Positions 59,491 to 60,751 of a stretch of 64,000 bases of DNA are shown piece after piece. The notes under the pieces were generated by a model. The model worked only from the letters and a program-made list of their open reading frames with translations, did no database searches and was not told the origin of the DNA. Source of the DNA: Octopus vulgaris (Eukaryota). The position numbers and the translations under genes were made by a program. The stretch covers positions 103,292,001 to 103,356,000 of the forward strand of contig OX597818.1 of assembly GCA_951406725.2 (NCBI GenBank), written 5' to 3'. Position 1 is the first letter of the stretch; the number at the start of each line of letters is the position of its first letter.

Positions 59491-59498
<8 letters not shown>

Positions 59499-60751
59499 AT
59501 GAGGGTGTCTAAAAGACACCAACATGCCGAAATAGCAGTCGAAACACTGACTATAGTACCACGTTAAATGTTCATATCGCACCATGAGGTAAAGCGGAGG
59601 GACAAAACATACAAGCAAAAATTATTGAATAATTCAAGATCCAAGGATTTCTGGTTCTGCTTTAGATAAGCTTTACCGTCATCAATTGAATATATCAAGG
59701 GTACATAAATACAGATATATATATGCACAGCAAACGATATACTTACATATACGAGCGTCGTACATACATACATATGCACGTATGGACACAGCCAGTCTGA
59801 ATCGCCCGCCAAATCACCGCATAAGTACGATATGGTTAAAATAAGCACCGCAGTGAATATAATAACGAATTATATAAATTTATATATGAGGATAATATCG
59901 ATATTTAAGTGTCGAAATCATCAAGTTGCCAGCATGAAAGAAATACCTTACAAAGGTAAAAAAATGTTTAACAATTAAAAATGAGGGTGTCTAAAAGACA
60001 CCAACATGCCGAAATAGCAGTCGAAATACTGACTATAGTACCACGTTAAATGTTCATATCGCACCCTCCGCTCTACCTCATGGTGCGATATGAACATTTA
60101 ACGTGGTACTATAGTCAGTGTTTCGACTGTATTTCGGCATGTTGGTGTCTTTTAGACACCCTCATTTTTAATTGTTAAAATTTTTTTTACCTTTGTAAGG
60201 TATTTCTTTCATGCTGGCCACTTGATGATTTCGACACTTAAATATCGATATTATCCTCATATATAAATTTATATAATTCGTTATTATATTCACTGTGGTG
60301 CTTATTTTAACCATATCGTACTTATGCGGTGATTTGGCGGGCGATTCAGACTGGCTGTGTCCATACGTGTATATGTATGTATGTACGACGCTCGTATATG
60401 TAAGTATATCGTTTGCTGTATATATATATCTGTATTTATGTACCCTTGATATATTCAATTGATGACGGTAAAGCTTATCTAAAGCAGAACCAGAATTCCT
60501 TGGATCTTGAATTATTCAATAATTTTTGCTTGTATGTTTTGTCCCTCCGCTTTACCTCATGGTGCGATATGAACATTTAACGTGGTACTATAGTCAGTGT
60601 TTCGACTGCTATTTCGGCATGTTGGTGTCTTTTAGACACCCTCATTTTTAATTGTTAAAAATTTTTTTACCTTTGTAAGGTATTTCTTTCATGCTGGCCA
60701 CTTGATGATTTCGACACTTAAATATCGATATTATCCTCATATATAAATTTA
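59491..60751. mobile_element. ~482 bp unit, partial tandem then inverted partial tandem, between (TA)n tracts; Penelope pLTR or retrozyme-like
   Basis: Forward 59491-60065 (unit start recurs at 59973), inverted 60066-60751; hammerhead-like fold in each arm. Confidence 0.75.
59632..59691 (-). ncRNA. Candidate type I hammerhead ribozyme variant
   Basis: ATTCAA-TTGATGA-C-GGT..ACC-A-GAA-ATCC-TT-GGAT-C-TTGAAT; mirror copy 60453-60512 on plus strand has GAAT in place of GAAA. Confidence 0.55.

What the first reader, a model, noticed from the sequence alone, without database searches (positions are those of the whole stretch)
59491..60751. Hammerhead-bearing ~482 bp unit in tandem plus inverted arrangement (retrozyme or Penelope pLTR-like)
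Seen: ~1.2 units forward, then ~1.4 units inverted, nearly identical, non-coding and inside (TA)n. The unit holds a type I hammerhead-like fold: stem I ATTCAA/TTGAAT, core TTGATGA (C3U), stem II GGT-aaa-GCTT-atcta-AAGC-aga-ACC with a C-A closing mismatch, GAA, stem III ATCC-tt-GGAT, cleavage triplet AUC. Known: Penelope elements have variant minimal hammerheads and tandem/inverted ends; retrozymes spread through circular RNA and leave greater-than-unit-length permuted copies. Inference: reverse transcription of a circular or multimeric RNA with a template switch. A transcript would also fold into ~570 bp of dsRNA.
Basis: partly seen in the sequence, partly recalled or inferred. Interest (0 to 1): 0.75.

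Follow-up and report, generated by a model that had tools for sequence, protein, structure and literature searches.

The report
Two-armed retrozyme with drifting ribozyme core
This is one young copy of a small, protein-free jumping element found at many places in this animal genome; it carries an altered, untested self-cutting RNA motif and was likely pasted in by a Penelope-type enzyme copying one RNA, probably a circle, from both cut DNA ends.

Summary
In detail: a 575-bp arm and an inverted 692-bp arm of a 482-bp non-coding unit lie inside (TA)n. It is a young family (220 exact ribozyme-motif matches; median divergence 1.25%). Of 78 insertions examined, 51 are two-armed. In all 46 classifiable ones, one arm ends at unit position ~380 and the other at ~482: the Penelope 'tail' signature, here 102 nt long. 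Opposite arms share recurrent sense-strand A>G alleles (concordance 0.88 versus 0.15 between loci), which fits both arms being copied from one edited RNA. A fold-back switch or an assembly chimera is not supported. The hammerhead is real: its helices show compensatory changes against older subfamilies. Its core, however, drifted CU>CC>UC>UU at positions 3-4, so activity is doubtful and untested. This locus has one ribozyme per arm, one of them broken, so it cannot release a monomer itself. A young intact Penelope-like element that also targets (TA)n is a candidate partner, not a proven one. The class is known (animal non-LTR retrozyme). This scan already reported the same two-armed pattern for other unit sizes in this genome; the core drift was not among those notes.

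The parts
59428..59490 (.). left (TA)n target microsatellite; no target-site duplication can be resolved in it
59491..60065 (-). arm A, 575 bp: unit positions 288-482 then 1-380; 3' end at fixed site A (window 59491, without tail)
59632..59691 (-). type I hammerhead variant: U3 with G8, C/A mismatch at the base of helix II, 2-nt loop III; predicted cleavage after C17 at 59638
   Evidence: activity untested
60064..60081 (.). head-to-head junction of the two 5' ends (unit 288 and 270), 2-nt overlap, 16-nt hairpin loop 60066-60081
60064..60755 (+). arm B, 692 bp: unit positions 270-482 then 1-482; 3' end at fixed site B (with tail)
60453..60512 (+). second hammerhead copy, with A15.1 changed to T at 60496; predicted impaired
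60654..60755 (+). 102-nt 'tail' between the two fixed 3' ends (unit 381-482)
59919..59919 (-). A434G allele private to this locus, present in all three passes on both arms (also near 60227 and in the last unit); A74G (59797) is also shared by both arms
60756..60775 (.). right (TA)n target microsatellite

Best explanation
This is a young copy of a multi-copy, non-coding 482-bp hammerhead-bearing repeat whose insertions end at two fixed sites inside (TA)n, likely written by a Penelope-like reverse transcriptase-endonuclease priming from both cut DNA strands on one RNA that is probably a circle. Shown: the family, the (TA)n targets, the one-of-each pairing of the two 3' ends, greater-than-unit arms, allele sharing between arms, and covarying ribozyme helices. 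Inferred: (1) arrays with two ribozymes on one strand are transcribed and, by slow or protein-assisted self-cleavage plus a host ligase, give a 482-nt circle; (2) ADAR edits some circles at a few paired adenosines; (3) the PLE protein nicks both strands of (TA)n and starts cDNA at site A on one strand and site B, 102 nt further on, on the other; (4) both cDNAs run round the circle, stop at random and are joined head to head with 0-5 nt of microhomology or a short filler. This locus is a dead-end product: one ribozyme per arm, one of them broken.
For: Copy number and age: 1531 first-look candidates, 40 scored, full-unit hits 97-100% identical; 220 motif matches; median divergence 1.25% over 131 passes longer than 300 nt. 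Architecture: 51 of 78 insertions two-armed; 46 of 46 classifiable are A/B, none A/A or B/B (p 3e-14 against 50%); 115 of 129 3' ends abut (TA)n. This matches the published tail between two RT start sites, with both strands cut and extended (PMC11167929), and the tail on one of the inverted pLTRs (PMC3846280). Template longer than a unit: arms up to 1686 bp; of 46 A/B insertions, 26 A arms and 17 B arms exceed 482. 5' ends are not enriched at the cleavage site: 2 of 129 within 10 nt, 5.6 expected. One template: recurrent A>G alleles are shared between opposite arms (0.88) and successive passes (0.93) but not between loci (0.15); 12 of 15 informative two-armed insertions are fully concordant. 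Editing signature: 8 recurrent A>G against 1 T>C on the sense strand (p 0.003); 6 of 8 A>G sites occur in both of two lineages defined by linked markers, against 0 of 7 other markers seen in 5 or more loci (p 0.007). Later gene conversion is unlikely to explain the sharing: for private alleles, opposite-arm comparisons give 10 shared against 141 unshared. Ribozyme: 4 of 17 pairs show changes on both sides and 93% of cells pair, against 13-45% when partners are slid. In 29 DNA-selected copies of the oldest subfamily the core is 98.5% conserved against 94.1% downstream. A young autonomous PLE with intact 781-aa RT + GIY-YIG frames exists, ends in (TA)n and has an optional ~33-nt tail.
Against: No circular RNA, cleavage or strand-resolved expression was shown; all 8 runs laid were contigs and only one is on record as RNA. 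The core is non-canonical (U3 with G8 in 144 of 144 passes), and helix I has probability 0.04 in the predicted circle fold, so circles may not form by self-cleavage. PMC11167929 found that ribozyme mutants do not affect insertion in vitro and that uncleaved RNA is the main substrate; the bioRxiv study saw cleavage in only 1 of 9 tested retrozyme dimers. 3 of 15 two-armed insertions and 3 of 14 same-arm comparisons are discordant at A>G sites; L018 differs at 4 site comparisons and at another marker, so some insertions used two templates. A>G alleles already fixed in source arrays would also give concordance. Among rare alleles T>C (64) outnumbers A>G (21). The unit has no significant homology to the candidate partner: end similarities p 0.12 and 0.07, no blastn hit outside the simple repeat. 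The 78 insertions were chosen for full units or an intact motif. The shuffle control does not correct for relatedness.
Confidence: 0.68

Rival explanations
1. Same Penelope-type two-site priming, but on uncleaved linear multimeric read-through transcripts of existing arrays; the ribozyme is now vestigial and no circle is made.
For: Core drifted away from consensus; hammerhead not favoured in predicted folds; PMC11167929: cleavage dispensable in vitro and no RNA-seq reads ending at the cleavage site; 26 arms among the 78 insertions hold two or more units with a ribozyme and could serve as sources.
Against: Independent editing of each unit of a multimer predicts concordance near the allele frequency (2-29%); 0.93 and 0.88 are seen. 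Arrays would shrink over generations without a re-read template, yet arms reach 3.5 units. Helices kept compensatory changes over ~28% divergence.
Confidence: 0.22
2. One reverse transcription with a fold-back or template switch onto the nascent cDNA makes the inversion.
For: At this locus the two 5' ends are only 18 nt apart on the unit, giving a near-perfect hairpin; shared alleles between arms would follow.
Against: Across 51 junctions the offset has median 132 nt and no excess near zero (5 within 20 nt, 4.3 expected). It does not explain why the second arm always stops at the other fixed site (46 of 46), and arm lengths are uncorrelated (rho 0.12).
Confidence: 0.05
3. DNA-level amplification (satellite, rolling-circle DNA transposon or repair), with the ribozyme as a passenger.
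For: Tandem units; no homology to an autonomous retroelement was found.
Against: Fixed 3' ends with random 5' truncation, strand-biased recurrent A>G, dispersed short arrays, and the same end geometry as an RT-encoding PLE in this genome.
Confidence: 0.04
4. Assembly or library fold-back chimera.
For: No contig from an independent run spans this junction.
Against: 51 loci with different inversion points obey one end rule; the arms differ at 10 of 575 columns; contigs of an independent run join the two orientations at other points (table 5).
Confidence: 0.01

Closest known systems
Metazoan non-LTR retrozymes (Cervera and de la Pena 2020, PMC7229834; Li, Clavereau and Pollet 2026, 10.64898/2026.07.22.740005)
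   Same: Non-coding, low-GC (35%) tandem unit with one type I hammerhead per unit, strongly self-paired RNA (z -6.0 linear; -4.4 circular), dispersed copies, PLEs in the same genome. Axolotl HHR_Amex2 also has a mismatch at the base of helix II.
   Different: 482 bp, above the 170-400 nt of the 2020 paper but within the 51-972 bp of the 2026 one; core U3 with G8 after a long-lived U4C stage; two-armed insertions with two fixed ends are not described in the parts read; circle and cleavage not shown here.
EN+ Penelope-like element insertions with pLTR, inverted 5'-truncated copy and tail (PMC8557442, PMC3846280; Poseidon PAc biochemistry, PMC11167929)
   Same: Partial tandem plus inverted copy, tail on one end only, AT-rich / (TA)n target, hammerhead upstream of two 3' end sites.
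   Different: No ORF; tail 102 nt against 30-40 nt; arms pass round the unit more than once.
Non-autonomous Chlamys PLEs such as MRC1 (PMC8557442, passage seen)
   Same: Non-coding, multicopy head-to-tail insertions made in trans.
   Different: Those share 3' sequence with their partner and, by the abstract, their clade lacks canonical hammerheads; here a hammerhead is present and partner homology is not significant.
PLE minimal and variant hammerheads (Cervera and de la Pena 2014, PMC4209133)
   Same: [quoted passage not shown]
   Different: The published variant is the compensated U3-A8 pair; here U3 faces G8, and an extra A precedes G12 in all subfamilies seen.

Membership tests
Metazoan non-LTR retrozyme | Short non-coding tandem unit, multi-copy | tested here: met
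Metazoan non-LTR retrozyme | Type I hammerhead fold in each unit | tested here: met
   helices I and II covary across subfamilies; motif in 66 of 68 passes from 31 DNA-selected insertions
Metazoan non-LTR retrozyme | Canonical catalytic core (C3 U4 G5 A6 N7 G8 A9 / G12 A13 A14 / A15.1-U16.1 / H17) | tested here: not met
   U3 in 144 of 144 passes of the young family; canonical C3U4 only in the oldest subfamily. So it is a variant of the class
Metazoan non-LTR retrozyme | Two consecutive ribozymes on one strand (the 'active' criterion of Li et al.) | tested here: inconclusive
   not met at this locus; 26 arms among the 78 insertions have two or more units spanning the motif
Metazoan non-LTR retrozyme | Self-cleavage and circular RNA in vivo | not testable with these tools
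   only contigs available; indirect support from allele concordance
Penelope-like element (insertion signature) | Partial tandem plus inverted 5'-truncated copy | tested here: met
   51 of 78 insertions
Penelope-like element (insertion signature) | Tail on one end only (two RT start sites) | tested here: met
   46 of 46 classifiable; 102 nt long
Penelope-like element (insertion signature) | AT-rich / microsatellite target | tested here: met
   115 of 129 3' ends abut (TA)n
Autonomous PLE | RT + GIY-YIG ORF between pLTRs | tested here: not met
   no ORF in the unit; tblastn with the 781-aa protein hits 1 of 78 loci, about 970 bp from the element, and 2 of 74 older loci, unlinked
Non-autonomous derivative of a named PLE | Sequence homology to the pLTR of an autonomous family | tested here: inconclusive
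   36 GIY-YIG loci of 148 matches (6136 candidates) checked, no hit; end similarity p 0.12 and 0.07

The most novel reading that the evidence does not exclude
A retrozyme lineage kept spreading by the hundreds while its hammerhead core walked stepwise away from the consensus (C3U4 to C3C4 to U3C4 to U3U4) with helices maintained. It would be a deliberately slow or protein-assisted ribozyme that still makes circles. Each two-armed insertion is then a single-molecule record of one ADAR-edited circle read at once by two Penelope RT active sites from two sites 102 nt apart.
Probability: 0.35. Interest if true: 0.72.

Novelty: new variant of a known kind. Interest (0 to 1): 0.48.

Why it matters
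How Penelope-like elements make their tandem and inverted insertions is described as still undefined (PMC8557442), and that they mobilise animal retrozymes through circles is a hypothesis (PMC7229834). This family gives countable genomic evidence on both: a strict pairing of two start sites and alleles shared between arms. It also gives a natural series of ribozyme cores (CU, CC, UC, UU) and a young intact candidate enzyme, so that 'is cleavage needed for retrozyme spread?' can be tested directly. The class itself is known, and this scan has already reported the two-armed pattern for other families in the same genome.

Tried and rejected
Rfam scan: 19 matches at E<=10, mostly hairpin miRNA models, none at its gathering score, no hammerhead family. 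A Pfam accession recalled for a PLE thumb domain is not in the library; PF01541 was used instead. The zero and the single hit come from my pattern errors (one N too many; gap range too long) and carry no information; one search is the corrected search. One search (C3 core with a 2-nt loop III) gave 1 hit, not followed; the oldest subfamily has a 1-nt loop and is missed by that pattern. The constrained hammerhead energy was invalid and is not used. All-against-all comparison of masked flanks showed matches I did not identify and no lead to a shared ORF. L075, an A-type arm joined to an inverted arm of another hammerhead family, first looked like a two-RNA chimera; that arm is at best 96% identical to its relatives and its end resembles an A-type end, so sequential insertion is as likely: left open. 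Sequencing runs: 24 listed, 8 laid, all contigs; they give no start, end, strand or level, and none spans the locus. Weak hints only: G at unit 113 appears in contigs of 3 of 4 RNA-type runs (one on record as RNA, three guessed) and in none of 4 runs of unknown kind at the 8-10% listing threshold; one contig of depth 3.1 carries 7 sense-strand A>G changes around the ribozyme. Rows dropped: 20 of 98 loci as duplicates of one insertion; 5 of 51 two-armed insertions unclassifiable (one at an assembly gap, four with an arm ending elsewhere); blast hits under 90% inside the simple-repeat part of the unit. Not found in print: an octopus retrozyme, a U3-G8 retrozyme core, or edits shared between PLE arms; the library lacks most subscription papers, and no supplements were read (those of PMC4209133 and PMC7229834 list many hammerheads and may bear on this).

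Full report
1. Observation. The window holds a minus-strand arm at 59491-60065 and a plus-strand arm at 60064-60755 of a 482-bp unit, inside (TA)n. The arms match at 565 of 575 columns around a 16-nt loop. The unit is 35% GC and has no ATG ORF over 69 aa. It folds far better than shuffles (z -6.0; as a circle -4.4 on 40 shuffles). I number the unit on the ribozyme strand so that position 482 is the right end of the insertion.

2. Family. The window lies in a 2.8-Gb genome. A DNA search gave 1531 candidates, 40 scored, full-unit hits 97-100% identical. An exact motif search gave 220 matches and 0 for the control. I examined 98 loci, 78 distinct insertions, chosen from top DNA hits and the first 100 of the 220 motif hits, so they lean to complete copies. 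Median divergence is 1.25%. Contigs of runs labelled as several other organisms hold the unit too.

3. Architecture. 51 of 78 insertions have two arms with their 3' ends outward. 3' ends fall at position ~380 (A) or ~482 (B). All 46 classifiable two-armed insertions have one of each; 5 could not be classified. One-armed copies end at A in 17, at B in 9, elsewhere in 1. 115 of 129 3' ends abut (TA)n. 5' ends are spread over the unit, with no excess at the predicted cleavage site (2 of 129). Junctions show 0-5 nt overlap in 31 of 51, longer overlap in 6 and a filler in 14. The offset between the two 5' ends is random, which argues against fold-back; this locus's near-symmetry (18 nt) is within chance. 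The pattern is the known Penelope signature: an inverted 5'-truncated copy and a tail at one end (PMC8557442, passages; PMC3846280, passages). In the anole Poseidon element the tail is the stretch between two internal RT start sites, and both target strands are cut and extended (PMC11167929, parts 1-2 of 4). Here the tail is 102 nt.

4. One template for both arms. Eleven recurrent A>G alleles are shared between opposite arms (0.88) and between passes of one arm (0.93), not between loci (0.15). At this locus a private A434G sits in all three passes and A74G on both arms. Of recurrent alleles in 4 or more loci, 8 are A>G and 1 is T>C on the sense strand (p 0.003). Three linked markers split the family into two lineages; 6 of 8 A>G sites occur in both, against 0 of 7 other markers seen in 5 or more loci (3 of 4 rarer markers also cross). 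Ten of the 11 sites have pairing probability above 0.5 in the predicted circle. I infer A-to-I editing of the template, fixed by reverse transcription. Because each pass reads the same state, the simplest template is one circle. Against this: 3 of 15 informative two-armed insertions are discordant; edits already fixed in a source array would also be shared; rare alleles are not A>G-rich; RNA evidence is contigs only.

5. The ribozyme. Older relatives were found by a second motif (142 matches) and a DNA search from an old copy (3259 candidates). Over 24 distinct sequences, 93% of cells pair and 4 of 17 pairs change on both sides, in helices I and II, which were not part of the search pattern. 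In 29 DNA-selected old copies the core is 98.5% conserved against 94.1% downstream. So the motif is real. Positions 3-4 change with subfamily: of 54 motif copies, 11 are CU (70-82% identity to the window unit), 37 CC (75-92%), 2 UC (one insertion), 4 UU (90-91%); the young family is UU in 144 of 144 passes. The order CU, CC, UC, UU is inferred from identity, not from a tree. An extra base after A9 and an extra A before G12 are present throughout. Published natural variants include compensated U3-A8, and U4C, weak in vitro but tolerated in a viroid (PMC3088659, passages; PMC4209133, parts 1-2 of 4). I saw no U3 with G8 in these passages. Activity is therefore expected to be low, perhaps needing a dimer or protein; the anole ribozyme cleaved only with its protein. 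This locus has one ribozyme per arm and the plus-strand one has lost A15.1, so it cannot give a monomer.

6. Partner. A GIY-YIG search gave 148 matches of 150 scored. Sixteen fetched loci carry an intact 781-aa RT + GIY-YIG frame, 91-100% alike over the main body. They end in (TA)n; 4 of 15 shown have a ~33-nt tail, and both two-armed copies pair a tailed with an untailed end. They carry a U3-A8 minimal hammerhead-like motif. A cysteine motif before the endonuclease suggests the Neptune or Nematis group (feature). Similarity of the ends to this unit is suggestive only (p 0.12 and 0.07). It is a candidate by age and target, not a proven partner.

7. Comparison and verdict. It works like a non-autonomous Penelope-like element of the animal non-LTR retrozyme type (PMC7229834, passages and parts 3-4 of 6; bioRxiv 10.64898/2026.07.22.740005, parts 1-3 of 5). 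It meets the structural tests, fails the canonical-core test and is untested for cleavage and circles, so I file it as a variant of that kind. PMC7151607 was seen in passages only and not used. Eight earlier notes of this scan describe the two-armed pattern for 356- to 535-bp families in this genome; none matched this sequence or the core drift. The genome is called an octopus in those notes; I did not verify that. Hammerhead numbering and ADAR and ligase roles are from the papers read and general knowledge. Interest 0.48.

Noticed in passing
L131-L146 (e.g. L142:939-5830; G000 C5:1039500-1048500): Young autonomous Penelope-like family: intact 781-aa RT + GIY-YIG frame, an overlapping upstream 479-aa frame in another phase in 3 of 16 copies, tandem motif array in the 3' region, U3-A8 hammerhead-like motif, (TA)n target, optional ~33-nt tail.
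   Followed up: partly
L075:1655-2025; L115-L130: A second hammerhead repeat family (period about 506 bp, 2038 candidates, canonical core, two ends 87 nt apart); one arm of it is joined inverted to an arm of the 482-bp family.
   Followed up: partly
window 59626-59638 (minus); L152-L225: A short hairpin that would sequester the 3' strand of helix I lies just downstream of the cleavage site and changes in step with helix I between old and young subfamilies; possibly a switch that keeps the ribozyme off.
   Followed up: no
run X5 contig laid on window 59600-59735: One contig of depth 3.1 from a run guessed to be RNA has 7 sense-strand A>G changes around the ribozyme, like hyper-editing.
   Followed up: no
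window 36408-37115 (minus): Decayed fragment of another Penelope-like RT, 39% identical to the 781-aa protein.
   Followed up: no
window 45773-49748 (minus) and 19699-20799 (plus): Long open frames (592, 703 and 367 aa) that read like non-LTR retrotransposon proteins (recalled resemblance).
   Followed up: no
window 37939-40094 and 51306-53996: Very long (TA)n-type arrays of 2.1 and 2.7 kb.
   Followed up: no
L018: The two arms differ at A>G sites and at a lineage marker, so this insertion seems to have used two different templates.
   Followed up: partly
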